A stretch of DNA of 64,000 bases from Armatimonadota bacterium (GTDB taxonomy: Bacteria; Armatimonadota; UBA5829; DTJY01), in assembly GCA_963663705.1 (NCBI GenBank), contig OY760504.1, positions 1,224,063 through 1,288,062 of the forward strand. The letters run 5' to 3'. The translations under genes were made by a program, and so were the position numbers. Position 1 is the stretch's first letter; the number at the start of each line of letters is the position of its first letter. Shown here one piece after another: positions 1,674 through 37,643 of this stretch. The notes below the pieces were generated by a model, which searched no databases, was not told where the DNA came from, and worked only from the letters and a program-made list of their open reading frames with translations.

Positions 1674-2024
1674 GGGGGCGATTGGAGTCGACAGAGAAGG
1701 TAGTTGCATAGGTTGCGGGCCGAGGCGCCGCTGGCCTCGTTAAAAGCGGCAAAGCCATAAACGGCACAAATAACTACGCACTAGCTGCTTAATTGACAGC
1801 TCGTCCGACCGGTCTATTTCGGCGAGATCGGACCCGGGCGTCAAATTAGCCGGATTACCCGAGGAACAACGCTCGTAGATTCTGAGGGGAAATAAAAACG
1901 AGCTGGCGCGGCGGCATCCTGCCTGTGGGAGACCAAAGCGCGAGAAACAAATCGCAGGATATGCCTGTAGACGCTTATGTTGACTCTTCTTTGGACCCGA
2001 GTTCGAGTCTCGGCGCCTCCACCA
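1674..2024 (+). ncRNA. ssrA: tmRNA (ssrA)
   Basis: 5' GGGGGCGATTGGAGTCGAC. Acceptor stem 1674-1680 pairs with 2014-2020 and includes the G3:U70 wobble. Tag ORF GGC AAA GCC ATA AAC GGC ACA AAT AAC TAC GCA CTA GCT GCT TAA (1748-1792) encodes GKAINGTNNYALAA*. 3' tRNA-like domain GGACCCGAGTTCGAGTCTCGGCGCCTCCACCA ends in CCA at 2022-2024. Confidence 0.85.
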
Positions 2025-4970: not shown

Positions 4971-5381
4971 CTATGGGAATTGTATTTCTTCCCTTTGCAC
5001 CTCCCAAATGACCGTGCTTTTCTTAGTTAGCATTGTGAGCGACAACCCGCTCGGCTCCTCGCCCATAAGAATCATCTCCACGATATCCGGTGCGAGTAGA
5101 GTGAGTCGCATCAGTCTGGCAGCGAATGATACGTCCAGCCCTATTTCACGGGCAAGATCGGAAATCGACTCGAACTTGCCTTCGTCGAGCAACTTCTGCC
5201 ACCTGTGCGATCGGGCGAGTGCTATGACCAGCGCTTCCTGCTGAGACTGGTACATTGGCTTATCCGAGGCAAACGCCTGCGGCATGATCACCTCTTTCCT
5301 CCCACCCCGTTTCTTCAAGCGGAGCGGCACGTTGATCACTATCCCCTGGTTGTTGTTTTGTACTTCGGTTCCCGATATCAT
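4971..5381 (-). CDS. small helix-turn-helix protein coupled to the recombinase (possible directionality or accessory factor)
   Basis: 136 aa. HTH-like SISDLAREIGLDVSFAARLMRLTLLAPDIVE. Overlaps the recombinase stop by 4 nt. Confidence 0.4.
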   Translation of the reverse strand: MISGTEVQNNNQGIVINVPLRLKKRGGRKEVIMPQAFASDKPMYQSQQEALVIALARSHRWQKLLDEGKFESISDLAREIGLDVSFAARLMRLTLLAPDIVEMILMGEEPSGLSLTMLTKKSTVIWEVQREEIQFP

Positions 5382-6952
5382 TGTGTAATGTTCCTTTCCC
5401 GTCGGTCTGTCTTGTCCCTTACCTCGCTCACCAGCGAATGAAGACCATTGCCCCGAATTTTGATATACATGCCATCTGGATTGACGATCACCTGATCGAT
5501 CAGTAGATGAATAATTCTCGTCTGCTCCAGAGGGAATAGCTCGTCCCAGATAGGATCGAGCCTGCGCAGAGATTCGGCTACATCGCGTTCAGTGACCAGT
5601 TTCGCCTGCATCCCCTGTATCTCATCGTCTACGTCACGGAGTCTGTGCTGGGCACTGATGTGTTCCTCATTGGTCCGGCGGATCTCATCCATCGTGTCAC
5701 TATCCGATGCGCCGGAGTCCAGCAGCCGGGATGCAGTCTGCTTCAGCCGATTGAGACGTCCTTCCAGTTCCATACGCTCCAGCCGCAGCCGATCAAGTTC
5801 CTCTGACTCAAGATCACGGGTTGACCTGTAGGTCTGAGCTATCATCTCAGGCGATTTAAATATCGCGCGAATCTGCTGAATGACGGCCGACTCTATGTCT
5901 CCGGCAGGGACGGACCGCACCGGGCAGTTGCCGTAACCGGTCTTTGCCGCATTCCCGCAAGTATAGTACCTGTAGATCTTACGGGGACCGCCGGTCGATA
6001 CCGGACTCATCGCACTGTCGCATGCTCCGCACCGGATGATACCTTTAAGGAGCGAAGTTGACTTGGCTCGTGTAGGCTGCGAATGGTACTGTTTGTTGCC
6101 CTCGATTACGGAGTGCGCACGATCCCAAAGGTCGCGGCTTACTATCGCTTCATGCTCTCCCGGGTAAGTTTTATCCTTATGTGTGACATCACCTAGATAC
6201 GTGCGATTGCATAGCACTCGGTAGATATGCGATTTATTCCAAGATTTGCCTTCCCGAAATACTCCATGCTTCGTCATCCACGATTTGGTTGTAAGGCCCT
6301 TCTTATTCAGTTCCTGGGCAATAGCAAGAGGTGATCCTACCTCGGTGAAACGTTTGAATATATGGCGTACGAGCTTTGCCTCTTCGGGATTGATGACAAG
6401 CGCTGTTCTCTCCGAATCGACATCGTACCCGAGTGGCGGCGTGCCTCCGGTGAACTTGCCCTTCTTCTTTGCTGCTGCGACCTTGTCGCGGATTCGCTCA
6501 CCGATGATTTCCCGTTCAAACTGGGCAAATGAAAGTAAAATATTGAGGGTCAACCTGCCCATCGAGGACGTAGTATTGAAGGATTGAGTAACCGAAATGA
6601 AGGACACTCCATTATTATCGAAGGTCTCCATGATTTTCGAGAAGTCGAGGAGCGATCTGGAAAGCCGATCCACCTTATAGACCACGATGCAGTCTATCCG
6701 TCGATTCTCCACATCCTGAAGCAGTCTCTCCAGTGCCGGCCGCTCCATGTTCCCACCGGAGAATCCACCATCATCATACCTTTGTGCGACCACCGTCCAT
6801 CCCTCATGTTTCTGGCTCATGATGTAGGCTTCCCCGGCCTCGCGCTGGGCGTCAAGCGAGTTGAACTCCTGATCCAATCCTTCCTCAGTGCTCTTACGGG
6901 TATATATGGCACACCGGATGCGTGGGGTAACGATACTCGACGACCCGCTCAT
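5378..6952 (-). CDS. large serine recombinase (integrase)
   Basis: N-terminal resolvase catalytic domain (CAIYTRKSTEEGLDQEFNSLDAQRE, VVYKVDRLSRS), a recombinase domain, a Zn-ribbon (CGACDSAM...C..C) and a C-terminal coiled coil. The ORF track extends to 7015; M at 6952 abuts the upstream gene. Confidence 0.85.
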   Translation of the reverse strand: MSGSSSIVTPRIRCAIYTRKSTEEGLDQEFNSLDAQREAGEAYIMSQKHEGWTVVAQRYDDGGFSGGNMERPALERLLQDVENRRIDCIVVYKVDRLSRSLLDFSKIMETFDNNGVSFISVTQSFNTTSSMGRLTLNILLSFAQFEREIIGERIRDKVAAAKKKGKFTGGTPPLGYDVDSERTALVINPEEAKLVRHIFKRFTEVGSPLAIAQELNKKGLTTKSWMTKHGVFREGKSWNKSHIYRVLCNRTYLGDVTHKDKTYPGEHEAIVSRDLWDRAHSVIEGNKQYHSQPTRAKSTSLLKGIIRCGACDSAMSPVSTGGPRKIYRYYTCGNAAKTGYGNCPVRSVPAGDIESAVIQQIRAIFKSPEMIAQTYRSTRDLESEELDRLRLERMELEGRLNRLKQTASRLLDSGASDSDTMDEIRRTNEEHISAQHRLRDVDDEIQGMQAKLVTERDVAESLRRLDPIWDELFPLEQTRIIHLLIDQVIVNPDGMYIKIRGNGLHSLVSEVRDKTDRRERNITQ

Positions 6953-7446
6953 GCCACACCTCTGCTTTTCTTCACGTGCGTTTTCTTCAGTCCGAAGAAG
7001 GAGCGGCCATTCCAATGAGTGCCCGTTATCTCAGTCGCTATGGCACTGAGCGATTTGTAGCGCCGGCCTTCATACTCAAAGCCACCATATACGACTATGA
7101 CCTCGTATGCACGTCCGTTCCATTCGCGTACCAACCGGGTGCCTACTACGGGTACGCCTACCTTGCGCTTTTTCTCTGCGCGTCTGCTGTCCATATTGCC
7201 GCCATTCTCATCAAAGCCACGAGAGTCGAGAACCTCGTCCATAATCTTACGTGCCTTGTCCGACAGACCGCCATATGATATCTCCTGGATGCGATATGCC
7301 AGACGCTTCATGAGATACGGCCGGTTCGTTGCGGTCGGCTCCTTGCCGTAGAGCGTGCGCCAGAGAGAACAGAGTTCCCCATGGCTGAGATTGCCCAAAT
7401 CTGCGATCTGCTTTAATACCGAATTGTCTGTTGATCTTAATGCCAT
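6949..7446 (-). CDS. small basic protein, DUF2924-like; from memory this family often sits beside large serine recombinases
   Basis: 165 aa, immediately upstream of and coupled to the recombinase. Family assignment is from recollection only. Confidence 0.4.
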   Translation of the reverse strand: MALRSTDNSVLKQIADLGNLSHGELCSLWRTLYGKEPTATNRPYLMKRLAYRIQEISYGGLSDKARKIMDEVLDSRGFDENGGNMDSRRAEKKRKVGVPVVGTRLVREWNGRAYEVIVVYGGFEYEGRRYKSLSAIATEITGTHWNGRSFFGLKKTHVKKSRGVA

Positions 7447-7493: not shown

Positions 7494-7904
7494 CTACTTG
7501 TGCACTTTCGCTGCGGCCGCGCGCATCTGGGTAAGCGTTCTGCCGCCGGTAAACTGGACGTGCGGGCGATCCTTCATCGTCTTCCACGTCCCACCCCATT
7601 CGAGACCACACGCACTCGCAATCCTACCGAACGTATCCCACGGCCCGTTCCAGGTGACCTTGCCGTTTATGATAAATGCGTAGTCTGCACCAAGGCCGAA
7701 ATTGTGCCAACTGTATCCACCACGAGCATTTGTCACGATATTCCCGGGCTTGGTGCGGCCAATCTGGTAGAGCCGGTTTTGCTCCTCAATCGAGCGGTAT
7801 CCCCATGTCAGGATTACCTTGATACCTCGACCTGCGAGCTTTTGCTCAAATACGACGAGCTTTTTTGCGAATGAAGGATCGAGTCCAGATCTGGATGCTC
7901 TCAT
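7494..7904 (-). CDS. peptidase M15 family endolysin (L-Ala-D-Glu / D-Ala-D-Ala peptidase type)
   Basis: Motifs SWHNFGLGADYA and WGGTW...DRPHVQF are typical of the Peptidase_M15 metallopeptidase fold. Confidence 0.7.
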   Translation of the reverse strand: MRASRSGLDPSFAKKLVVFEQKLAGRGIKVILTWGYRSIEEQNRLYQIGRTKPGNIVTNARGGYSWHNFGLGADYAFIINGKVTWNGPWDTFGRIASACGLEWGGTWKTMKDRPHVQFTGGRTLTQMRAAAAKVHK

Positions 7905-8479: not shown

Positions 8480-9154
8480 CTATTTTTGGAATCCTGCAAT
8501 CTTGAAAGCCCGTTTCAGATTCTTCACTCGATCATAAAGCGTACCTCGAGGTATGCCAGTGTACTTCGATACCGCCGGTATGCTGCCAAACTCGATGATC
8601 TGCTCGCAAAAGTCCTTGAGGTCGGCAGGAAGACCGTTTACGATACTCGCGATTTCCGATTTGAGGTCGACCTCTGCGAGTTTGGATATCGACTGTTTGC
8701 CGATCTGTGCCAAATACTCGTCTTCATCAATCGAATCGCCCGGTCCGTATATCAAGCCCACGCTATCTGTAAACTCTTCATTTAGCGAAAATGCATGCGC
8801 ACGGAAATCAAAATACCAGGACTTCCGCGATTCGATCATGCTTGCAATCTTGCTGTTTAGCACCATGTTGACAAAGGTCATGAGCTTCGACCGCTCCGGA
8901 TTGTGTTTTGGCAGCGATTCCCGAAGGTGCCACGCGAGTTCCGATTCGATGTCGTCCCGGTCGGATTTTGTAAACCCTGCGGTACCTATGAGGTTGTAGC
9001 TCTTGTGCTTGATTGAAATGACCATTTCGGCGGTCAGACCGTCGTAGTTTTTCGGTATACCCATTGATTTTCTCCTCTTGCCGAGGAGGTCGTTGTGGGT
9101 ATCACCGGTGATGCGGAGGTGCTGAGATGACGCATTTGTCTGCGACACCCACAA
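8480..9154 (-). CDS. sigma-70 family (ECF-like) RNA polymerase sigma factor
   Basis: Region-2-like segment and a C-terminal region-4 HTH (IPRGTLYDRVKNLKRAF). Confidence 0.65.
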   Translation of the reverse strand: MWVSQTNASSQHLRITGDTHNDLLGKRRKSMGIPKNYDGLTAEMVISIKHKSYNLIGTAGFTKSDRDDIESELAWHLRESLPKHNPERSKLMTFVNMVLNSKIASMIESRKSWYFDFRAHAFSLNEEFTDSVGLIYGPGDSIDEDEYLAQIGKQSISKLAEVDLKSEIASIVNGLPADLKDFCEQIIEFGSIPAVSKYTGIPRGTLYDRVKNLKRAFKIAGFQK

Positions 9155-9680: not shown

Positions 9681-9760
9681 TGAGGTCAGGAGGATAGAAA
9701 ATGAGCTAATTCACGCACAGAAATGCCAATTTCAAGGCAGAAAAAATATTTCTGGGATAA

Positions 9761-9789
9761 CAAAAAAGCCCAGCGAAATTTCGCTGGGC
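9761..9789 (-). terminator. intrinsic terminator closing the repressor operon
   Basis: Perfect 22-bp palindrome GCCCAGCGAAATTTCGCTGGGC (9768-9789), followed on the minus strand by a U-run (A6 at 9762-9767 on the plus strand). Lies just downstream of the gene ending at 9819. Confidence 0.6.
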
Positions 9790-9818
9790 AGAACGTCAAA
9801 GGTTCGCAACAGTGGAGA

Positions 9819-11003
9819 TTAGCAGCTTACTTTGAACTTAGCATTCCATATTTTACCTTCGTCATCGTAGAAGAACGGGTCATCTTCAATACCGAATATC
9901 CGTCTCAGATGCTTGGAGAGCTGTGTCTTCCAGTCCTTGTTCTTATCTTTATTGCCTATTGAGTAGTCGATAACTCCATGGTTTGTCGCTATATCGTAGA
10001 AGAAATCCCATACCACAATTGGAGTCTTCTTTCTACTGCTGCCCATACCGAGTTCATGGCAGGTAAACTGGCGAGTTCGTCCCGGTGCAATTATCTCAAC
10101 TTGATCTGTATACATGAAATGCACAGAGATATCGGCCCATGCTGTTCCGGGCGGTGTCGGAAATACTGATGATTTGGTATCCTTTGATGGCGCATGGTGG
10201 GACAGGAAGGTCTCTAATGATCTGGAGTACAGTTCATTCGGCACGAACTTGCCGTTAGCGACCGGAACTGCATCAGCGAGATTCAGCAACAGTGACCCTG
10301 TTCTCTCAGCCACCGCGATACAATTTGGCCTGAGCGGCCTACCGCAGGTATGCAGGATTATGGGAGGTTCCTTACATGTGCAGATAAGCATCAGCAGAGT
10401 GTGTTCCAGGTTGGCATATAAGCCGCCGATGACGAGAAACACTGGGAACTTCAGACCGGAGACTGTTTTGATATCCGACAGGTGGTAGACCCCCTGCATG
10501 TCGTCCACCTGTCTCGATATCGAGTCCAACTTTAGAGCTTCGGCAAGTTTCCGACATAGCAGTTGCTCGTTGAAATCATAGATCACAAGATCCGTCTTCG
10601 TTATGGAGAACGCATCGCACTCATAGTACTCGCACTGGCAAACTGCGATAATCTCGCCATTTGAGAGCTCGACCGCTTCGTGCTGGCACATACATTGCCT
10701 TGGGTTCTGGCACGGAACGAAGTCCGCGTACTTCTCCAAGGGACGAAGGAATTGCCGAACCATACCATAATCATCACCTGTCGACAATCGCCATTCCGAA
10801 TCTACGGCAGCAAGCACCGGCAGATCAGCGAGCGCCGACCATAAGTTCTTCGATGTCATCGGTTTCTTCCTCATCAATGATAAACATGCGGGCACGCAGC
10901 CACTGTTCAATAGGGTCGCCGTCTCCGTCTCTATGATACTGCGCCACATTTGATGGCTTGATGACAACCGTTCTCGGACGTTTCGAATCAACGAATCTGA
11001 CAC
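9819..11003 (-). CDS. hypothetical protein B of the repressor operon (Cys-rich N-terminal module)
   Basis: 394-aa ORF. Cys cluster CQNPRQCMCQHE...CQCEYYEC. Overlaps the upstream gene; the likely start is an internal M near 10859-10874. No family recognised. Confidence 0.5.
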   Translation of the reverse strand: MSDSLIRNVRERLSSSHQMWRSIIETETATLLNSGCVPACLSLMRKKPMTSKNLWSALADLPVLAAVDSEWRLSTGDDYGMVRQFLRPLEKYADFVPCQNPRQCMCQHEAVELSNGEIIAVCQCEYYECDAFSITKTDLVIYDFNEQLLCRKLAEALKLDSISRQVDDMQGVYHLSDIKTVSGLKFPVFLVIGGLYANLEHTLLMLICTCKEPPIILHTCGRPLRPNCIAVAERTGSLLLNLADAVPVANGKFVPNELYSRSLETFLSHHAPSKDTKSSVFPTPPGTAWADISVHFMYTDQVEIIAPGRTRQFTCHELGMGSSRKKTPIVVWDFFYDIATNHGVIDYSIGNKDKNKDWKTQLSKHLRRIFGIEDDPFFYDDEGKIWNAKFKVSC

Positions 11004-12015
11004 GAAAACTCGCCTTCAGAATCGGAGCTTCTTCGGGCATATCCTCCCCTCTGCACATAAGGTCCGCGAAAACATCGTCCGCCCTGATCGTGCGAACGGC
11101 GCTGTATGGCCCACCCATATCGAACTGGATTTCTGCAAGCTTTATCTCGACTAACCCCGGGATATCGTTGCAGACTAGCGACCGCACTCCATCCGTTCTG
11201 AGTGGTTCGAGGCTATACCGACCGCAGTCCGGAAAATGCTCGATGTTGTCGAATACGTGTTTGCCGATAACCTGACGGTAGAGGCCGCGTATGCCCTTGG
11301 ACGTATTGTTGATGCGCAGCTCGCCGGTACCAGGCTTGTAGACCACTACATCATGTTTCTCAGGCTGAAAGAATAAACTGGACGATTCGCCGTTTTGAAT
11401 ACGTGGCACTCTCGTGTAAGGCTCACCATGCCTGATAAGAAAGCAGTAATCTTCACCTCTCGGGAACATGAACACTCGCGTGTTGCGGCCCCTCTTGTGC
11501 TCCTCGAACCAGTCGTCGAACTCACTCTCCATCGCCCGGAGCGTCTCCTCGGAGGGTTCACTGAAAGCTTTCAAAGACTGGGCATCGGCATAATAGTTCA
11601 GAAATGTTCGCGGCTTGTGGACGAACTGGCGGGCGTAGGCGCGCTCAACGAGGCTGCTGTCCATCATCCACGCCTGCATGGCGATATCGACCGGTGTCGA
11701 GTCCTTCTCGTCGATGAATCGCCCGTTTCGCGCCAACTCTCGTAGTATGGCATCCATGCCGGGCTCGGTCGCCATCTCGTTGACATAGTAAAGCGCATCG
11801 ATCAGACTCGTCGGGGTATCGCTGTTCGGGGCGAGCAGCACTCTGACCAGGGTATTGTAGTCAAGGCATTCGATCTGTTCCTCGGAATCTTGGATATCGA
11901 TTTGGCGCGACTCCAAATAGCTTGAATGCGGCTCAAGGAAAGCTATGAGGTATTTCGCTCCTACCGATTTCAGTACGTCCGCGTTTGCGAAACGTTTTAG
12001 TGCATAATTGGACAT
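10825..12015 (-). CDS. hypothetical protein A of the repressor operon
   Basis: 396-aa ORF directly downstream of the repressor on the same strand. Acidic C-terminus. No family recognised. Confidence 0.5.
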   Translation of the reverse strand: MSNYALKRFANADVLKSVGAKYLIAFLEPHSSYLESRQIDIQDSEEQIECLDYNTLVRVLLAPNSDTPTSLIDALYYVNEMATEPGMDAILRELARNGRFIDEKDSTPVDIAMQAWMMDSSLVERAYARQFVHKPRTFLNYYADAQSLKAFSEPSEETLRAMESEFDDWFEEHKRGRNTRVFMFPRGEDYCFLIRHGEPYTRVPRIQNGESSSLFFQPEKHDVVVYKPGTGELRINNTSKGIRGLYRQVIGKHVFDNIEHFPDCGRYSLEPLRTDGVRSLVCNDIPGLVEIKLAEIQFDMGGPYSAVRTIRADDVFADLMCRGEDMPEEAPILKASFRVRFVDSKRPRTVVIKPSNVAQYHRDGDGDPIEQWLRARMFIIDEEETDDIEELMVGAR

Positions 12016-12037
12016 GTGATGTGTTCATTTCCTTTCT

Positions 12038-12754
12038 TTACATAACGATTTGGTTGCTGGTTGCCAGGCTTCTTACGGCAACCACTTTTCCAGCTATTCG
12101 AAGGTCATCATCCGACCTGAGAACAATCGGATCGTAACTTGGGTTTTCAGGTTTGAGCAGAATATCCTTCCCATGGATAATAAGGCGCTTTACCGTAGCC
12201 TCATTATCAAGCAGAGCGACCACAATATCGCCGTTCTCGGCAATGGGCTGCTGGCGCACTACTATCAGATCTCCCGGGTCGATACCGGCACCCGTCATGC
12301 TGACGCTCTGAACCTCCAACGCAAAATAGCGACCACTCCGGATCACCGAACTCTCAACCAGAATATTTCCGATAACGTTCTCCTCTGCAAGTATCGGAAG
12401 CCCCGCCGCAACTTTGCCGACGATGGGAATAGAAACCAGGCTAGCCAAGGTGCCGGCCGGTTCATGAACGACTGATATCCCACGGGCTTTGCCGTCCTCT
12501 CGTCTTAGATATCCCTTTTGGATTAGCTGATTGATCTGGTCATGCACCGTTGAACTGCGCAGGCCGAGTATCGACGCGAGATCCGCTACGGTGGGCGGGA
12601 TTCCTCGGTCGAGTATAAACTTTCGGATCGTCTTTAGCGTTCTCTCCTGATGTTCGGTAATACCGGTGGCCGGTTTGCGCCCCGGTCGGCGTGTCTCGCC
12701 GCCAAGACCGTCTTCATCGAATACCAATGTTATCGCCCCTTCATGTCTATTCAT
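12038..12754 (-). CDS. LexA/CI-like repressor (winged-HTH plus S24 self-cleaving peptidase)
   Basis: LexA-type DNA-binding region (TLKTIRKFILDRGIPPTVADLASILGL...). S24 catalytic Ser in EVQSVSMTGAG and Lys in ATVKRL. Confidence 0.8.
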   Translation of the reverse strand: MNRHEGAITLVFDEDGLGGETRRPGRKPATGITEHQERTLKTIRKFILDRGIPPTVADLASILGLRSSTVHDQINQLIQKGYLRREDGKARGISVVHEPAGTLASLVSIPIVGKVAAGLPILAEENVIGNILVESSVIRSGRYFALEVQSVSMTGAGIDPGDLIVVRQQPIAENGDIVVALLDNEATVKRLIIHGKDILLKPENPSYDPIVLRSDDDLRIAGKVVAVRSLATSNQIVM

Positions 12755-12991
12755 TGCAGTTAATAACCTATTTTGAAGAGACTGCTAATTATATCACCGT
12801 ATAGACAATCGGTCAATCCTATGTTTATGTTCGGTTTGCTGTGCTTTCAGCTGGCTATCGTCAAGGGCTGGAATTGCCGTTTGCAAAATATTTGGTGAAT
12901 TTCCGACACTTTGCAAATCTCTCCGGTAAGTAACCAGTGGAGGTAACTTCACGGCGCGCCGATGCTATAGACAAAAACACGGGAGATCACG
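12755..12991. promoter_or_regulatory. divergent early regulatory region between the repressor and the early operon
   Basis: Intergenic 237 bp carrying two copies of the palindromic octamer TTTGCAAA (within 12868-12917), an AAATATTT core, and the 15-mer CCGACACTTTGCAAA also found at 35159-35173. Confidence 0.45.
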
Positions 12992-14328: not shown

Positions 14329-16122
14329 ATGCTACTGCCTACCGCAAAAACACCGCCAAAGCCTGACCTTGCCGACCTGAGCGTACTGGTATACGGCCCA
14401 ACGAAGATCGGAAAGTGCCTCAAGGGTGATACCTGCATTATCGATCCTGTGACAGGGCGGCCACGGACTATCCGCGAGATCGTAAAAACGCGACAGGGGC
14501 CTGTTCATACTCTCGGAGAGGCCGGATGCATATCCTCAGTGGAGCCTTCGGCGTTCGTAGAGAATGAGCCGGAACAGCTATTCAGGCTTACTACTCAGAC
14601 CGGCAGGGTTATCGAGGCTACTGCAAGTCATCCATTCCTGACCAGAAGTGGATGGAGGCCGCTATCTGAACTAAGGGAGTGCGATAGGGTTGCCGTAATA
14701 GCTGAGTACCCACGGCTATTCGGCTGCACACGAACAGACAGTGATCAGCTTACCATACTTGCGTATCTGATTGCCGATGGCTCACTCGGCGGGAACAAAT
14801 CGCCTATCTTCACGAAGTGCGACCCGGAGGTAAGGCTGGACTTCGAATCATCAGTGGAACGTACCGGAGATGAGTGCATTGAGTACGAGAACACAAATGG
14901 CATCACTCATGTCAGGGTGCGTGGCAAACCTGGATTCCAGAACAATGTCATCGCGCTCCTCAGGGAGCAGGGACTGCAAGGACTGCGTGCACCTGATAAG
15001 TTCATCCCGGATTTCGTGTTCGGATTGCGAAGGTCGAAGCTTGCGCTCTTCCTGAACAAACTGTTCTCCTGCGATGGCAGCATGGAGGCAACGGGGAGGG
15101 TCAGCTACAGTTCTACGTCCATCCGAATGGTGCGCCAGGTCCAGCACCTGCTGCTCCGCTTTGGCATCGTGTCACTGCTGCACAACAGGTTTATCGACGG
15201 CGAACTCTACGGGGCAGAGATACTCGTTGCAGGCAAGACCGATGTGCTGAGGTTCATAGATCAGATCGGGTTCACCGGAGAGAAGGGCGTTAAGGCAGAA
15301 AGTGTTCGGGCTGCGCTCTACAACGTGCGGGCAGCAGAGACCCAACTCGATAAGGTAGGCCCTATCCTTTTCGACCGCATCAGGAGCATCGAGCCGACAA
15401 CCATCGAGTCAGTCTACGATCTCACGATCCCTGATACCCACAATTTCATTGCAAACGATTTTGTGGTCCACAACTCAACATGGTGCTCTCATGCCGATGT
15501 CGCGCTCTTTCTCTCGACCGAACCGGGGCTGAACTCCCTTGAGGTGTTCCAGACGCCCATACGATCCTGGGAGGAGCTGCTCGCCGCTTGTGGTGAGATC
15601 GCCGAGGGGAAACACCCGTTCAAGACGGTCATTATCGATACCATTGATAACGCCTTTCGCATGTGCGCCGACTACGTCTGCCGCAAGTTCAAGATCGAGC
15701 ATGAGTCGGATCTGGGCTACGGCAAGGGGTACTCGCTCATCGCAAATGAGTTTCAGCGCGTGCTAAACAAGCTTGCGTTTATGCCGTATGGGCTGTTTCT
15801 GATCTCCCATTCGCAGAACGTGGAGATCGAGACGCGCACGAGCAAGTACACGAAGACTGTGCCCACGCTTCCCGAGAAGGTAAGAAAGCTCGTGCTGGGA
15901 CTCGTGGATATGGTGCTCTACTGTGACATCGAAACAGGTGCAGGCTCGGATGGCAAGGTATCGGCACGCCGCGTCATGCGCACGAAGCCATCGATCTACT
16001 ACGAAGCCGGTGACAGAACCGTGAGGCTCCCGGACACGATTGACCTCGACTATGACAGATTCATCGAAGCATTCAAAACAGGCTTGAATAACAAAATCAC
16101 AAAGGAGACAGCAAGCAAATGA
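14329..16122 (+). CDS. Sak4-like AAA/RecA-fold ATPase interrupted by an intein
   Basis: Extein Walker A GPTKIGK|ST is split by a 353-aa insert. The extein totals about 244 aa. Confidence 0.7.
   Translation: MLLPTAKTPPKPDLADLSVLVYGPTKIGKCLKGDTCIIDPVTGRPRTIREIVKTRQGPVHTLGEAGCISSVEPSAFVENEPEQLFRLTTQTGRVIEATASHPFLTRSGWRPLSELRECDRVAVIAEYPRLFGCTRTDSDQLTILAYLIADGSLGGNKSPIFTKCDPEVRLDFESSVERTGDECIEYENTNGITHVRVRGKPGFQNNVIALLREQGLQGLRAPDKFIPDFVFGLRRSKLALFLNKLFSCDGSMEATGRVSYSSTSIRMVRQVQHLLLRFGIVSLLHNRFIDGELYGAEILVAGKTDVLRFIDQIGFTGEKGVKAESVRAALYNVRAAETQLDKVGPILFDRIRSIEPTTIESVYDLTIPDTHNFIANDFVVHNSTWCSHADVALFLSTEPGLNSLEVFQTPIRSWEELLAACGEIAEGKHPFKTVIIDTIDNAFRMCADYVCRKFKIEHESDLGYGKGYSLIANEFQRVLNKLAFMPYGLFLISHSQNVEIETRTSKYTKTVPTLPEKVRKLVLGLVDMVLYCDIETGAGSDGKVSARRVMRTKPSIYYEAGDRTVRLPDTIDLDYDRFIEAFKTGLNNKITKETASK
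14416..15474 (+). other. intein with LAGLIDADG homing-endonuclease domain inside the ATPase P-loop
   Basis: Block A CLKGDTCII starts right after the Walker A Lys. Block B TASHPF. LAGLIDADG motifs LAYLIADGS and LFLNKLFSCDGS. Terminal VVHN followed by Ser as the +1 residue. Confidence 0.8.
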
Positions 16123-35033: not shown

Positions 35034-35222
35034 TTTACTCGGCATCAGACCTTATCGTTAAGAATACCACCTGGCACTTAAGAGTCTCCAGCTACAAATG
35101 CCGAGGTAGGCCTCTCAGCTATTTTTTTTTGCACTTCGAAAACCAGTCAAAAAAAAAGCCGACACTTTGCAAACTTTTTCAATACATATTAAGTGGGAGG
35201 GCTTAATTATTAAGCCCACGGT
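35034..35222. promoter_or_regulatory. unusual intergenic region before the capsid operon (terminator-like T9, A9 run, repeated 15-mer, palindrome)
   Basis: GAGG-TAGG-CCTC stem plus T9 (35122-35130). A9 (35149-35157). CCGACACTTTGCAAA (35159-35173), identical to 12903-12917. Perfect palindrome GGGCTTAATTATTAAGCCC (35199-35217). Confidence 0.4.
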
Positions 35223-37643
35223 TTGCGAGGTAAATCATACGTGCAACTTTTTGCCACCGACTACGATAGACTGGCATTCCTTCTCGAGACAGACGCATCT
35301 CTTGCCCTGGGTGAACTTATCGCTCAGGGTGAGGAGCCTGACTCCGAGGAAGTGCCGGAAGATAAACGACCCAAATACATAACGAACTACATCGGCTCGA
35401 AGCAGAAGCTCGTCGACTGGATATGGAAGCATACCCCGGAAGGTGTCGCGTCCGTACTGGATGCATTCTCCGGCTCGGCGGTCGTGGCATATATGTACAA
35501 GACCAAGGGGCTCTCTGTATATGCCAACGACCGCCTCCACTACGCCTACCATGCCGCTCGCGCCATAGTCGAAAACGACAGCGTTCGGATATCGGAAGAT
35601 GAACTCGCTGCTCTCCTTGCGAAAAGCCCAAAGGCCGGGACCTTTGTCCAAGATAACTTTAAGGGGCTTTTCTTCGCAAACGGAGTGCACGGCGTCATCG
35701 ATAATATTCGGGCAAACGCAGACAGTCTTTCCGGGTTCAAGAAAGATATCGCGCTCTTTGCACTCGGAAAGACCTGCATGTCCGGCAAGGGTGGGTTCGG
35801 TCACTTCTCATCGTCCACCGATTACGGGAAGCGCCAGGACACGCCTGAGGAGTTCGAAGAGCGATTCACGGATAATGTCACCCGCATCAACGCTCTCGTC
35901 TTCGATAACGGCAAGGAATGCAAGGCATATGCCAAGGATATCAACGACATACTCCCGGGGTCTAAAGTCGACCTTGCATACTTCGATCCGCCTTATGCAA
36001 CCGAGTTCTCGACCACAAATTACGAGAAGTCCTACCACTTCATAGAAGGGCTCATGACATACTGGGACGGCCTCGAGATAAACCAGGACTCGAAGACCCA
36101 TCACTATGCGACGGACCATAAAACAGTGACCAAGGCTAACGCGAGTGAGTTCTTCGGTACTTTCCTTGCGAACGCCAATCACATACCAAATTGGCTGATC
36201 TCATACCGCGACCATGCCTACCCGAACGAGGGTGAGATGAAAGATATTATCTCGGCAAGCGGCATGCAGTCCAGAATGCAGTCCCAGCAGCATAAGTACA
36301 ACATCTCATCGAAGCATTCGGAGAACTCGACCGCAATGGAGCGGCTCTTCATCTGCTCAAAGTCATCTGCGTCTACCCAGGCGGATAGCGCGAATGAAGA
36401 GCCGCGCCCTGTTACTAAGATTCTATCGGCTGCATCACTCGCGGCAAACTGCCACACATCGATACCGGTCGAAGTAAGGCTGGGCGCAAATGATTCGATG
36501 TCTGCTCATGCCATCGATTTGAATACGAATGCCGGCGATCCACAGTTCAGCCTTATCATGTGCCGGGTCGGGACTAACAGAAACGGCGACCACTTCCTGC
36601 CGGAAGAGTTGTCTACCCGGTACACAACAGCAATCAACAAGAAGATCGACCTCAAACACTCCCAGGACCTGACTGACATAGTCGGCGGCATCGTGGGCGC
36701 TGAATACGTCGATGATGAGACAGGCGGCAGAGTCGAATGCGTGGGCGAGCTATACACAGCGGACACCCCCACCGCTGCGCTCGCCTACAAGCTCATGAAA
36801 CGCGGCATCATCTCTCAGGTCTCTATGGAGTGCGATTACGAGGCTGGTGAATGTTCGATCTGCGGGAAGACCGTAGCTAACAAGAACGACTACTGCGTTC
36901 ACCTCAGAAAGTTCAAAGGTGCAGAGTACCAGGGCAAACCGGTCTACGAGATACTGCACGGCGTAACGTTCACCGGCCTCGGCCTCCTCGATCGGAAGGG
37001 GGCAGACGAGAATGCACGCATCACACAGGTAGCAAGCGAACAGATAAACACAGGAGGCAACAAGTTGGAAGACGATAAGAAAGATATAGATGACGGCGCA
37101 GATGCCGCAAAGAAGAAGGCGCCGGATGGTGGTGGCAATAGTAATCCTTCTGCGCCCCCTATCCCGCCGGCAGATGATAAGGCCCGAATCAAGGAACTCG
37201 AGTCGGAGAATAAGACACTGAAGCAGCAGGTCATCGATCTTGAAAAGCAGGTACAGGAACTCGAAGCCGCGAGCCAGGCCGCCGCTAACAAGACGCGCGC
37301 TCAGAAACTAATCCAGAAGCTCGAGAAGTCGGGGATGTCCTTCGGCTCGGATGAAGACCGGGAGAAGGAGATGAGCAGGCTATCGGAACTCTCAGACGAT
37401 GCTTTCTCTGCAACGGAAGCCGCTTACGACAGGGCGATACAGCCGAAATCGGAGTGTCCCTGTACCGATAAATCCGGCGAAAAGGAAGAGAAGAACGCTG
37501 CATCTGCTTCCATGCGATCAAACGCCAATGTTCGGCCCGTAGATGTCGACGATAAGAAGCTTTCTCTCGAAGACAAGCTCAAGCAGGGATTCATGACGGC
37601 GTACCGGGAGCGTGTCGGCGCAGTCACTGGTGAAAAGAATTAG
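35223..37643 (+). CDS. Dam-like N6-adenine DNA methyltransferase fused to prohead protease/scaffold-like C-terminal region
   Basis: N-terminal FSGSA (motif I) and DPPY (motif IV) in alpha-class spacing. The middle region resembles a prohead protease (GDHF..., SMECDYE). The C-terminus is a coiled-coil scaffold (KELESENKTLKQQVIDLEKQVQELEAA). The start is possibly a GTG at 35241 with a GAGG Shine-Dalgarno. Confidence 0.55.
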   Translation: MRGKSYVQLFATDYDRLAFLLETDASLALGELIAQGEEPDSEEVPEDKRPKYITNYIGSKQKLVDWIWKHTPEGVASVLDAFSGSAVVAYMYKTKGLSVYANDRLHYAYHAARAIVENDSVRISEDELAALLAKSPKAGTFVQDNFKGLFFANGVHGVIDNIRANADSLSGFKKDIALFALGKTCMSGKGGFGHFSSSTDYGKRQDTPEEFEERFTDNVTRINALVFDNGKECKAYAKDINDILPGSKVDLAYFDPPYATEFSTTNYEKSYHFIEGLMTYWDGLEINQDSKTHHYATDHKTVTKANASEFFGTFLANANHIPNWLISYRDHAYPNEGEMKDIISASGMQSRMQSQQHKYNISSKHSENSTAMERLFICSKSSASTQADSANEEPRPVTKILSAASLAANCHTSIPVEVRLGANDSMSAHAIDLNTNAGDPQFSLIMCRVGTNRNGDHFLPEELSTRYTTAINKKIDLKHSQDLTDIVGGIVGAEYVDDETGGRVECVGELYTADTPTAALAYKLMKRGIISQVSMECDYEAGECSICGKTVANKNDYCVHLRKFKGAEYQGKPVYEILHGVTFTGLGLLDRKGADENARITQVASEQINTGGNKLEDDKKDIDDGADAAKKKAPDGGGNSNPSAPPIPPADDKARIKELESENKTLKQQVIDLEKQVQELEAASQAAANKTRAQKLIQKLEKSGMSFGSDEDREKEMSRLSELSDDAFSATEAAYDRAIQPKSECPCTDKSGEKEEKNAASASMRSNANVRPVDVDDKKLSLEDKLKQGFMTAYRERVGAVTGEKN

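What the first reader, a model, noticed from the sequence alone, without database searches (positions are those of the whole stretch)
9761..12991. Repressor-linked two-gene cassette in the lambda cI-rexAB position: candidate undescribed exclusion/defence system
A LexA/CI-type self-cleaving repressor (12038-12754) is followed on the same strand by two translationally coupled ~395-aa ORFs (10825-12015 and 9819-11003). I could not assign either to any family. The unit is closed by a strong intrinsic terminator (22-bp palindrome plus U-run, 9761-9789). It is driven from the divergent operator region (12755-12991) that carries TTTGCAAA palindromes. This is the architecture of lysogeny-expressed exclusion systems co-transcribed with the phage repressor, such as lambda rexAB. 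Protein B has a Cys-rich CxxxxCxC...CxCxxxxC module that suggests Zn binding. Protein A has a strongly acidic tail. Neither shows ATPase, nuclease or kinase motifs that I can see.
Basis: partly seen in the sequence, partly recalled or inferred. Interest (0 to 1): 0.8.

Follow-up and report, generated by a model that had tools for sequence, protein, structure and literature searches.

The report
Unknown prophage cassette beside LexA-like repressor
A prophage carries, just after its LexA-type repressor gene, a strictly paired and so far unnamed two-gene cassette (an RdgC/RexA-fold DNA-binding protein plus a soluble Cys-rich partner) that sits where related phages carry known anti-phage defence genes, so it is a good but unproven candidate for a new prophage-encoded exclusion system.

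Summary
The window holds a LexA-type repressor (12038-12754, -), protein A (10825-12015, 396 aa) and protein B. B most likely starts at ATG 10859 (346 aa), not GTG 11003. A strong promoter-like site, two TTTGCAAA palindromes and a strong terminator bound the unit.

- **No known family.** A and B match nothing in Pfam, NCBIfam, PHROGs, PADLOC or PDB sequences.
- **Obligate pair.** A B-family ORF follows A in 115 of 121 related loci. In 53 loci anchored on another gene, 35 had both, 18 neither and none only one. Natural A-B fusions exist.
- **Folds.** A's model has the RdgC/CENP-N/Chl4 fold, which is the published fold class of lambda RexA. I found no sequence or direct structural link to RexA. 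B is soluble, lacks a conserved catalytic constellation, and is unlike membrane RexB.
- **Cargo slot.** In related phages the same slot holds QatC-like, PD-Lambda-3 and Hachiman-helicase-like genes. One pair of 92-97% identical phages shows a clean swap.
- **Regulators.** Upstream regulators vary: LexA-type, HTH+M78 or none.

Best reading (about 0.45): an accessory, probably DNA-damage-responsive, prophage exclusion or defence module that acts through DNA binding. A Rex-like role in the lysis-lysogeny switch is the main rival. No function has been demonstrated.

The parts
12788..12816 (-). Sigma-70-type promoter-like site (TTGACC, 17 nt, TG-TATAAT) 34 nt upstream of the repressor start; presumed promoter of the repressor-A-B transcript
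   Evidence: 11 of 12 matches; the best of 5 sites in 5.4 kb. The total number of sites is not above the shuffle expectation, so this is a consensus match only.
12880..12917 (.). Two exact 8-bp palindromes TTTGCAAA (12880-12887, 12910-12917), 30 bp start to start, in the 237-bp divergent intergenic region; candidate operators. The second lies inside a 15-nt motif CCGACACTTTGCAAA that recurs at 35159-35173.
   Evidence: Not conserved in other loci. Binding by the repressor is inferred, not shown.
12038..12754 (-). LexA-type self-cleaving repressor (winged-helix LexA DNA-binding domain plus S24 peptidase domain), 238 aa
   Evidence: Pfam; TIGR00498 lexA 174.6 bits against a cut-off of 110.95; PHROG 4 transcriptional repressor. 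Homologues sit directly upstream of A in 54 of 119 loci, median 55% identity.
10825..12015 (-). Protein A, 396 aa: N-terminal helical domain (about 1-130), an RdgC/CENP-N/Chl4-like (TBP-like) alpha/beta body, and an acidic C-terminal tail; many conserved Arg/Lys
9819..10859 (-). Protein B, 346 aa (start ATG 10859, overlapping the end of A by 35 nt): N-terminal alpha/beta domain with a Cys cluster, a Rossmann/CheY-like middle domain, and a fast-evolving, exchangeable C-terminal domain; soluble
9759..9789 (-). Intrinsic terminator (GCCCAGCGA-AATT-TCGCTGGGC followed by TTTTTTGTT) 30 nt after the B stop codon
   Evidence: sequence.

Best explanation
The repressor-A-B unit is an accessory (moron-type) module of a widespread family of uncultivated temperate phages. 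It is most likely a prophage-encoded exclusion or defence system whose working part is an A-B protein complex that acts on DNA.

Shown:
- The three genes lie between one promoter-like site and one terminator.
- A and B are an obligate, translationally coupled pair that is sometimes fused.
- A has the RdgC/RexA-class fold of non-specific DNA-binding rings or horseshoes and carries many conserved basic residues.
- B is a soluble three-domain protein without a conserved catalytic constellation. Its last domain varies or is replaced between relatives.
- The cassette occupies a cargo slot, next to the immunity or integration genes, that holds known defence genes in sister phages.
- The cassette is gained, lost or swapped as a block.

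Inferred:
- The LexA-type repressor controls the cassette. In other phages an HTH+M78 pair of the ImmR/ImmA or CapH/CapP type takes this place. Expression would then be basal in the lysogen and rise on DNA damage or infection stress.
- A clamps or coats DNA of an incoming or replicating element, as RdgC does when it blocks RecA-dependent reactions.
- B, through its variable C-terminal domain, supplies target recognition or control.
- The outcome is a block of the competitor's replication or recombination, not a RexB-like membrane depolarisation.
For: - **Pairing.** A B-family ORF starts within -600 to +400 nt of A's end in 115 of 121 loci. In 53 loci anchored on the neighbouring PD-(D/E)XK gene, 35 have both A and B, 18 have neither and 0 have one alone. 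Divergent short partners of about 240 aa are still B family, hhalign 98.8-99.7%. A-B fusion proteins exist: P0119, with A at 1-379 and B at 388-733, plus P0212 and P0228.
- **Accessory status and hotspot.** L155 and L162 are 92-97% identical in their flanks, but [repressor C-terminus + A + B] is replaced by [262 aa + 700-aa QatC-like protein]. The slot holds PD-Lambda-3_B (1e-83) in L202 and a HamB-like helicase (4.5e-37) in L209. It is empty in L205.
- **Rapid divergence.** Median identity to the window is 42% for A and 27% for B, against about 60% for the replication genes. Remote A-like versions occur in the slot (hhalign 95.9%).
- **Regulators.** The upstream neighbour is LexA-type in 54 loci, HTH_3+Peptidase_M78 in 7, and the end of the integrase operon in 16. 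DNA-damage-sensing regulator modules upstream of immune operons are documented (10.1101/2022.04.27.489752; PMC13228613).
- **Phage association.** 50 IMG/VR contigs carry A. The surrounding genes are phage-like, including a serine recombinase with DUF2924.
Against: - No experiment exists.
- PADLOC has no model for either protein. That fits novelty but is not support.
- The hotspot argument is guilt by association. The same slot also holds non-defence or possibly anti-defence cargo, such as LigT/2H+cupin in L197.
- A and B occur in about two thirds of the sampled relatives. That is more like a semi-core lysogeny function than a sporadic moron.
- No effector activity can be named, because B lacks conserved catalytic residues.
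- A in this window is acidic overall, net charge -18.
- In some phages every gene, including A and B, is on one strand (L058, L070), so expression in the lysogen is not implied there.
- Operator binding and autoregulation are not shown.
Confidence: 0.45

Rival explanations
1. Switch modulator. A-B is part of the phage's own lysis-lysogeny circuitry rather than a defence system. A would be an RdgC-like DNA binder (RdgC inhibits RecA activities, including LexA cleavage). With B it would tune induction: damping or sharpening RecA-dependent cleavage of the LexA-type repressor, or locking the switch once flipped, as reported for lambda RexA.
For: - Position immediately after the repressor in 54 of 119 loci, with 1-50 nt gaps.
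- In L018, a close relative, A-B is itself the first leftward unit divergent from the early operon, with no repressor gene in between.
- Presence in about 66% of relatives.
- A has the RdgC fold.
- RdgC reduces RecA-dependent LexA cleavage, and RexA biases the lambda switch (PMC11077077).
- The fast-evolving DNA-binding-like C-terminus of B would suit an immunity-specificity determinant.
Against: - Sister phages with 71-97% identical flanks lack A-B entirely or carry defence genes in its place, so it is dispensable for the lineage's life cycle.
- A-B also follows HTH+M78 regulators or integrase operons, where RecA-mediated self-cleavage is not the trigger.
- No sequence homology to RdgC or RexA.
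Confidence: 0.27
2. Phage-benefit function at induction or infection, such as counter-defence or DNA protection or repair. Derepressed together with the repressor gene on DNA damage, A would encircle or coat phage DNA, ends or replication intermediates and shield them from host nucleases or recombination. B would act as an adaptor.
For: - The upstream regulators are of DNA-damage-responsive types.
- In several phages A-B is co-oriented with the early replication genes (L054, L058, L070).
- A Y-family polymerase follows B in L019, L020 and L040.
- The slot also contains a LigT/2H phosphoesterase+cupin protein, which could be anti-defence cargo.
- A has the RdgC-like fold.
Against: - The known cargo identified in the slot is mostly defence rather than anti-defence.
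- The cassette lies next to the repressor or integrase at the prophage end, the classical place for lysogenic-conversion genes.
- No nuclease-inhibitor or end-binding family signature was found.
Confidence: 0.15
3. Ordinary early phage function (replication initiator, antirepressor, partition or recombination-directionality factor) that is simply too divergent to recognise.
For: - Both proteins are orphan families, so nothing is strictly excluded.
- A-B often lies beside the serine recombinase/DUF2924 operon.
Against: - The replication module is complete elsewhere: PD-(D/E)XK, AAA_24, DUF669, RecD2-like helicase and primase.
- A-B occurs with unrelated replication modules (Prim-Pol type) and with both tyrosine and serine integrases.
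- It is dispensable in sister phages.
- There is no ATPase or nuclease signature.
Confidence: 0.08

Closest known systems
Lambda RexA-RexB and RexAB-type systems (mycobacteriophages Sbash, CarolAnn, Butters; Pseudomonas putida RexABpp)
   Same: - Two-gene cassette transcribed with or just after the prophage immunity repressor.
- The first protein is cytoplasmic. It has the RdgC/Iml3/Chl4 fold class that is reported for RexA (PMC11077077).
- It is an accessory, prophage-borne unit.
   Different: - No sequence homology of A to RexA (hhalign 0.2%).
- A has an extra helical domain of about 130 aa.
- B is a soluble 346-aa multidomain protein, not a 4-transmembrane RexB.
- Natural A-B fusions occur.
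RdgC (recombination-associated, nucleoid-associated DNA-binding ring; Pfam RdgC)
   Same: - Conserved basic residues consistent with DNA binding.
   Different: - No Pfam RdgC hit in any of 32 family members, even at E up to 1.
- hhalign against E. coli RdgC gives 0.1%.
- Low TM-scores (0.3-0.39), meaning different domain orientation.
- Extra N-terminal domain and an obligate partner protein.
- Phage-borne and linked to a repressor.
DNA-damage-regulated immune operons (CapH+CapP, CapW/BrxR, CapK/CapS upstream of CBASS and other systems) and ImmR/ImmA prophage immunity modules
   Same: A-B is preceded either by a self-cleaving LexA-type repressor or by an HTH_3 protein plus a Peptidase_M78 protein. 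This is the same logic as regulators that switch on immune operons after DNA damage (10.1101/2022.04.27.489752; PMC13228613).
   Different: - Here the regulator is co-oriented with the cargo and lies in the same transcript.
- In this window it also faces the phage early operon, so it may double as the phage repressor.
- The regulated cargo is unknown.
Card1/Can2/VC1899 (CARF plus PD-(D/E)XK nuclease) and restriction-endonuclease-fold proteins
   Different: - No sequence similarity.
- No conserved D...(D/E)xK or other catalytic constellation.
- A Cys cluster sits where the active-site strands would be (inference from the secondary structure).

Membership tests
LexA / S24 self-cleaving repressors (for the 12038-12754 gene) | N-terminal LexA-type winged-helix DNA-binding domain plus C-terminal S24 peptidase domain, scoring above the curated family cut-off | tested here: met
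   Pfam LexA_DNA_bind 1.4e-14 and Peptidase_S24 2e-31. TIGR00498 lexA equivalog 174.6 bits against a cut-off of 110.95, covering 3-198 of 203.
LexA / S24 self-cleaving repressors (for the 12038-12754 gene) | RecA-stimulated autocleavage and binding to operators in its own control region | not testable with these tools
   Two TTTGCAAA palindromes are candidate operators. They are not conserved in other loci.
[not shown]
   [not shown]
RexAB-type exclusion systems | Second component is a small polytopic inner-membrane protein (RexB, four transmembrane helices) | tested here: not met
   B is 346 aa. Its highest 19-residue Kyte-Doolittle mean is 1.55, in a predicted buried beta-strand. It is modelled as three globular domains at pLDDT 92.
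RexAB-type exclusion systems | Located downstream of, and co-transcribed with, the prophage CI-like repressor | tested here: met
   The gap between repressor and A is 22 nt. One promoter-like site and one terminator bound the unit. The same arrangement is found in 54 of 119 loci. Co-transcription itself is inferred.
RexAB-type exclusion systems | Excludes superinfecting phages | not testable with these tools
RdgC family (Pfam RdgC) | Sequence match to the RdgC profile | tested here: not met
   No RdgC hit for any of 32 members at E up to 1. hhalign against E. coli RdgC gives 0.1%. The PDB sequence profile search does not return RdgC.
RdgC family (Pfam RdgC) | RdgC three-dimensional fold | tested here: met
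   [not shown]
Known anti-phage defence systems (PADLOC-DB v2.0.0) | Match of either protein to any defence-system model | tested here: not met
   No hit for A or B at E up to 0.1. Neighbouring-slot cargo in sister phages does match QatC, PD-Lambda-3_B and HamB.
PD-(D/E)XK nucleases (for the B N-terminal or middle region) | Conserved acidic and lysine catalytic residues on the core strands | tested here: not met
   [not shown]

The most novel reading that the evidence does not exclude
A-B is a previously unrecognised, very widespread defence or conflict system. The B family has more than 2000 clusters at 50% identity, across Acidobacteriota, Planctomycetota, Desulfobacterota, Latescibacterota, Nitrospirota, Chloroflexota and others. 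In it an RdgC-fold DNA clamp, distantly akin to RexA, works with a soluble non-enzymatic sensor or adaptor instead of a membrane channel. It would give a tractable second model for how the RdgC/RexA fold senses or blocks foreign DNA. It may also link SOS-type regulators directly to immunity.
Probability: 0.3. Interest if true: 0.8.

Novelty: new variant of a known kind. Interest (0 to 1): 0.62.

Why it matters
How RexA senses infection is a question some 70 years old, and the fold it shares with RdgC was recognised only in 2024. A second, much larger and phylogenetically broader family with the same fold class sits in the same genomic position. It has a different, soluble partner and even natural fusions. 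That would help separate what the DNA-binding fold does from what the RexB membrane effector does.

It also adds two large orphan protein families with no Pfam, NCBIfam, PHROG or PADLOC model to the list of candidate prophage cargo. It defines a cargo hotspot in a widespread group of environmental temperate phages that could be mined for further systems.

Tried and rejected
- **Family libraries.** Pfam, PHROGs, PADLOC and NCBIfam on A and B gave nothing, singly or across 32 and 77 family members at E up to 1.
- **PDB sequence searches.** Profile searches with the A and B alignments gave only chance-level hits.
- **Word-indexed homologue search for B.** It found only 4-5 relatives. The exhaustive representative search was needed.
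- **afdb50 fold library.** Not available.
- **Isolated phages and plasmids.** tblastn of A against INPHARED phages and PLSDB plasmids gave no match, so no cultured phage carries it in those collections.
- **RexA and RdgC homology.** hhalign tests were negative.
- **Conserved operator.** TTTGCAAA is specific to this element.
- **Large proteins clustered with B.** My single-linkage clustering placed proteins of about 1100 aa with B. They are DnaG-type primases, so this is a clustering artefact.
- **lexA-imuA-imuB-type SOS mutagenesis cassette.** Considered and rejected. A and B show no RecA-like or Y-family polymerase signature. A Y-family polymerase follows B in only three related loci.
- **Literature searches.** DUF2924, RdgC-like, and RdgC with anti-phage defence returned nothing describing this pair.
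Full report
**1. What is in the sequence**

On the minus strand, three ORFs follow one another.
- A 238-aa repressor lies at 12038-12754.
- Protein A (396 aa) lies at 10825-12015, starting 22 nt after the repressor stop.
- Protein B ends at 9819.

The mechanical ORF for B begins at GTG 11003. Three lines of evidence favour ATG 10859, giving 346 aa and a 35-nt overlap with A.
- Public gene calls use it.
- All homologues begin at the equivalent position.
- A GAGGAAG Shine-Dalgarno-like stretch precedes it.

A near-consensus extended -10 promoter-like site (TTGACC-17-TG-TATAAT) lies at 12816-12788. A strong hairpin with a T-run lies at 9789-9759. The 237-bp divergent intergenic region holds two exact TTTGCAAA palindromes 30 bp apart. 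The whole window has 4 copies against 0.82 expected.

The repressor is a full-length LexA-type protein. It has LexA_DNA_bind and Peptidase_S24 domains and exceeds the NCBIfam lexA cut-off.

The window is a prophage-like element.
- To the left are a large serine recombinase with DUF2924, an M15 peptidase and a sigma-like protein.
- To the right are a PD-(D/E)XK nuclease, an intein-bearing AAA_24 protein, DUF669, a RecD2-like helicase and a primase-like protein, followed by long rightward ORFs (not annotated here).
- A tmRNA gene lies at the left edge.

**2. A and B are orphan families and an obligate pair**

Neither protein, nor any of 32 A or 77 B relatives, matches Pfam. Neither window protein matches PHROGs, PADLOC or NCBIfam, and the family profiles find no PDB sequence.
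- A has 83 homologues in the word-indexed search.
- A was found in 80 genome loci spanning many phyla and in 50 IMG/VR viral contigs.
- A is absent from isolated phages and plasmids in the collections searched.
- B evolves faster, at 27% median identity against 42% for A and about 60% for the replication genes.
- An exhaustive profile search finds 2086 B representative clusters.

The pairing evidence is strong.
- A B-family ORF starts at or just before A's stop in 115 of 121 loci.
- In 53 viral loci anchored on the neighbouring nuclease gene rather than on A, 35 have both, 18 have neither and none has only one.
- Short partners of about 240 aa in divergent branches are still B family (hhalign 98.8-99.7%).
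- Fused A-B proteins of about 735 aa exist.

**3. Structure**

*Protein A.* The AF2 model has pLDDT 84.6. It has an N-terminal helical domain and an alpha/beta body.
- Foldseek puts RdgC first, at E 1.2e-4 and probability 1.00, covering nearly the whole chain.

However, I could not connect A to RexA directly.
- Profile comparisons give 0.2% probability.
- Sequence comparison with RdgC is also negative.

So A works, by inference, like an RdgC/RexA-class DNA binder, but it is not shown to be a member of either family.

*Protein B.* The model has pLDDT 92.4. It is soluble with no transmembrane segment. It has three domains.
- The N-terminal alpha/beta domain carries the Cys cluster, which is plausibly metal-binding but is missing in some relatives.
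- The middle domain is Rossmann/CheY-like.
- The C-terminal domain is replaced in many relatives.

**4. Context: an exchangeable cargo slot**

Over 119 loci the gene directly upstream of A is:
- a LexA-type repressor in 54;
- the last gene of the serine-recombinase operon in 16;
- an HTH_3 plus Peptidase_M78 pair (ImmR/ImmA or CapH/CapP type) in 7;
- a tyrosine integrase in 1;
- something else in 41.

A-B also occurs in prophages with unrelated replication modules, next to the integrase at the prophage end.

In sister phages that lack A-B, the same slot between the immunity or integration genes and the sigma-like gene carries different cargo.
- A QatC-like 700-aa protein (PADLOC 2.4e-53).
- PD-Lambda-3_B (1e-83).
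- A HamB-like helicase (4.5e-37).
- A LigT/2H+cupin protein.
- Highly diverged A-like/B-like pairs (hhalign 95.9%).

Two viral contigs, L155 and L162, are 92-97% identical over more than 13 kb of flanks. They differ by a clean replacement of [repressor C-terminal part + A + B] with [262 aa + QatC-like protein]. L205 has none of the three genes. Repressor-A-B therefore behaves as accessory, block-exchangeable cargo in a hotspot that otherwise holds recognised defence genes.

**5. Interpretation**

The most likely reading (about 0.45) is a prophage-encoded exclusion or defence module.
- It would be transcribed from the repressor promoter.
- Both kinds of upstream regulator respond to DNA damage, so it is probably boosted by DNA damage. 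This is the logic documented for CapH/CapP-type regulators of immune operons (10.1101/2022.04.27.489752; PMC13228613).
- A would bind DNA, and B would supply recognition or control through its variable domain.

The steps from "binds DNA" onwards are inference.

The main rival (about 0.27) is a Rex-like or RdgC-like modulator of the phage's own lysis-lysogeny switch. This fits the tight link to a RecA-dependent repressor. It also fits the L018 arrangement, where A-B itself faces the early operon. Block loss or replacement in near-identical phages weakens it.

A phage-benefit role at induction (about 0.15) and an unrecognised ordinary early function (about 0.08) remain possible.

**6. Novelty and verdict**

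- The architecture, the orphan status and the conservation as a pair hold.
- The Rex analogy gains a fold-level argument for A but fails for B.
- Defence is supported by context only.

I rate it a new variant of a known kind: repressor-linked prophage exclusion cassettes built around an RdgC/RexA-fold protein. There is a real chance that it is a distinct system. Interest is 0.62.

Noticed in passing
window 1674-2024 (+): A tmRNA (ssrA) gene with tag peptide GTNNYALAA lies about 3 kb left of the recombinase module (4971-7446). It is a plausible attachment region, but the prophage boundary was not mapped.
   Followed up: no
window 14329-16122 (+): The AAA_24 recombination/replication ATPase gene is interrupted by an intein with a LAGLIDADG homing-endonuclease domain (Intein_splicing 2.5e-18, LAGLIDADG_3 1.6e-14). 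Relatives of about 250-270 aa lack it.
   Followed up: partly
window 12903-12917 and 35159-35173: The 15-nt motif CCGACACTTTGCAAA occurs in the early control region and again in an intergenic gap just upstream of the 806-aa ORF 35223-37643. A fourth TTTGCAAA lies at 197-204. It may be a shared operator or a promoter element, for example for the phage sigma-like protein at 8480-9154.
   Followed up: partly
L019 12014-13737 (also L020, L040): In three Acidobacteriota/Terriglobia loci a Y-family DNA polymerase (IMS, 4e-32; 490 aa) and a 108-aa ORF follow directly after B. This gives a LexA-like / A / B / translesion-polymerase string.
   Followed up: no
L010, L014, L017 (one Bryobacterales chromosome, OZ252029.1): One genome carries three copies of the repressor-A module (repressors 75-79% identical, A 76-92%). 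One copy, L017, showed no intact B-length ORF in the ORF list.
   Followed up: partly
L162 3097-6244 (same in L159, L163, L166, L170, L175, L177, L180, L183, L184): About ten viral contigs keep only a 77-aa ORF that corresponds to the N-terminal DNA-binding part of the LexA-like repressor. It is followed by a 262-aa protein and a 700-aa QatC-like protein. This would be a repressor lacking the S24 domain (no self-cleavage expected) next to a partial Qat-like system.
   Followed up: partly
L018 9287-12212: A close relative of the window's element (neighbouring nuclease 74% identical) has A-B directly divergent from the first early gene, with a gap of about 400 bp and no repressor gene. The LexA-like gene is therefore not needed for that arrangement.
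   Followed up: no
window 7494-7904 (-) and 8480-9154 (-): An M15-family peptidase (endolysin-like) and a sigma-factor-like protein (PHROG 1740, 1.6e-4) lie on the same strand as the lysogeny and integration genes, downstream of the terminator that closes repressor-A-B.
   Followed up: no
L197 4247-5482: In the same cargo slot one sister phage encodes a 411-aa protein with 2H/LigT phosphoesterase and cupin domains. It could be counter-defence cargo, for example degradation of a cyclic-nucleotide signal.
   Followed up: no
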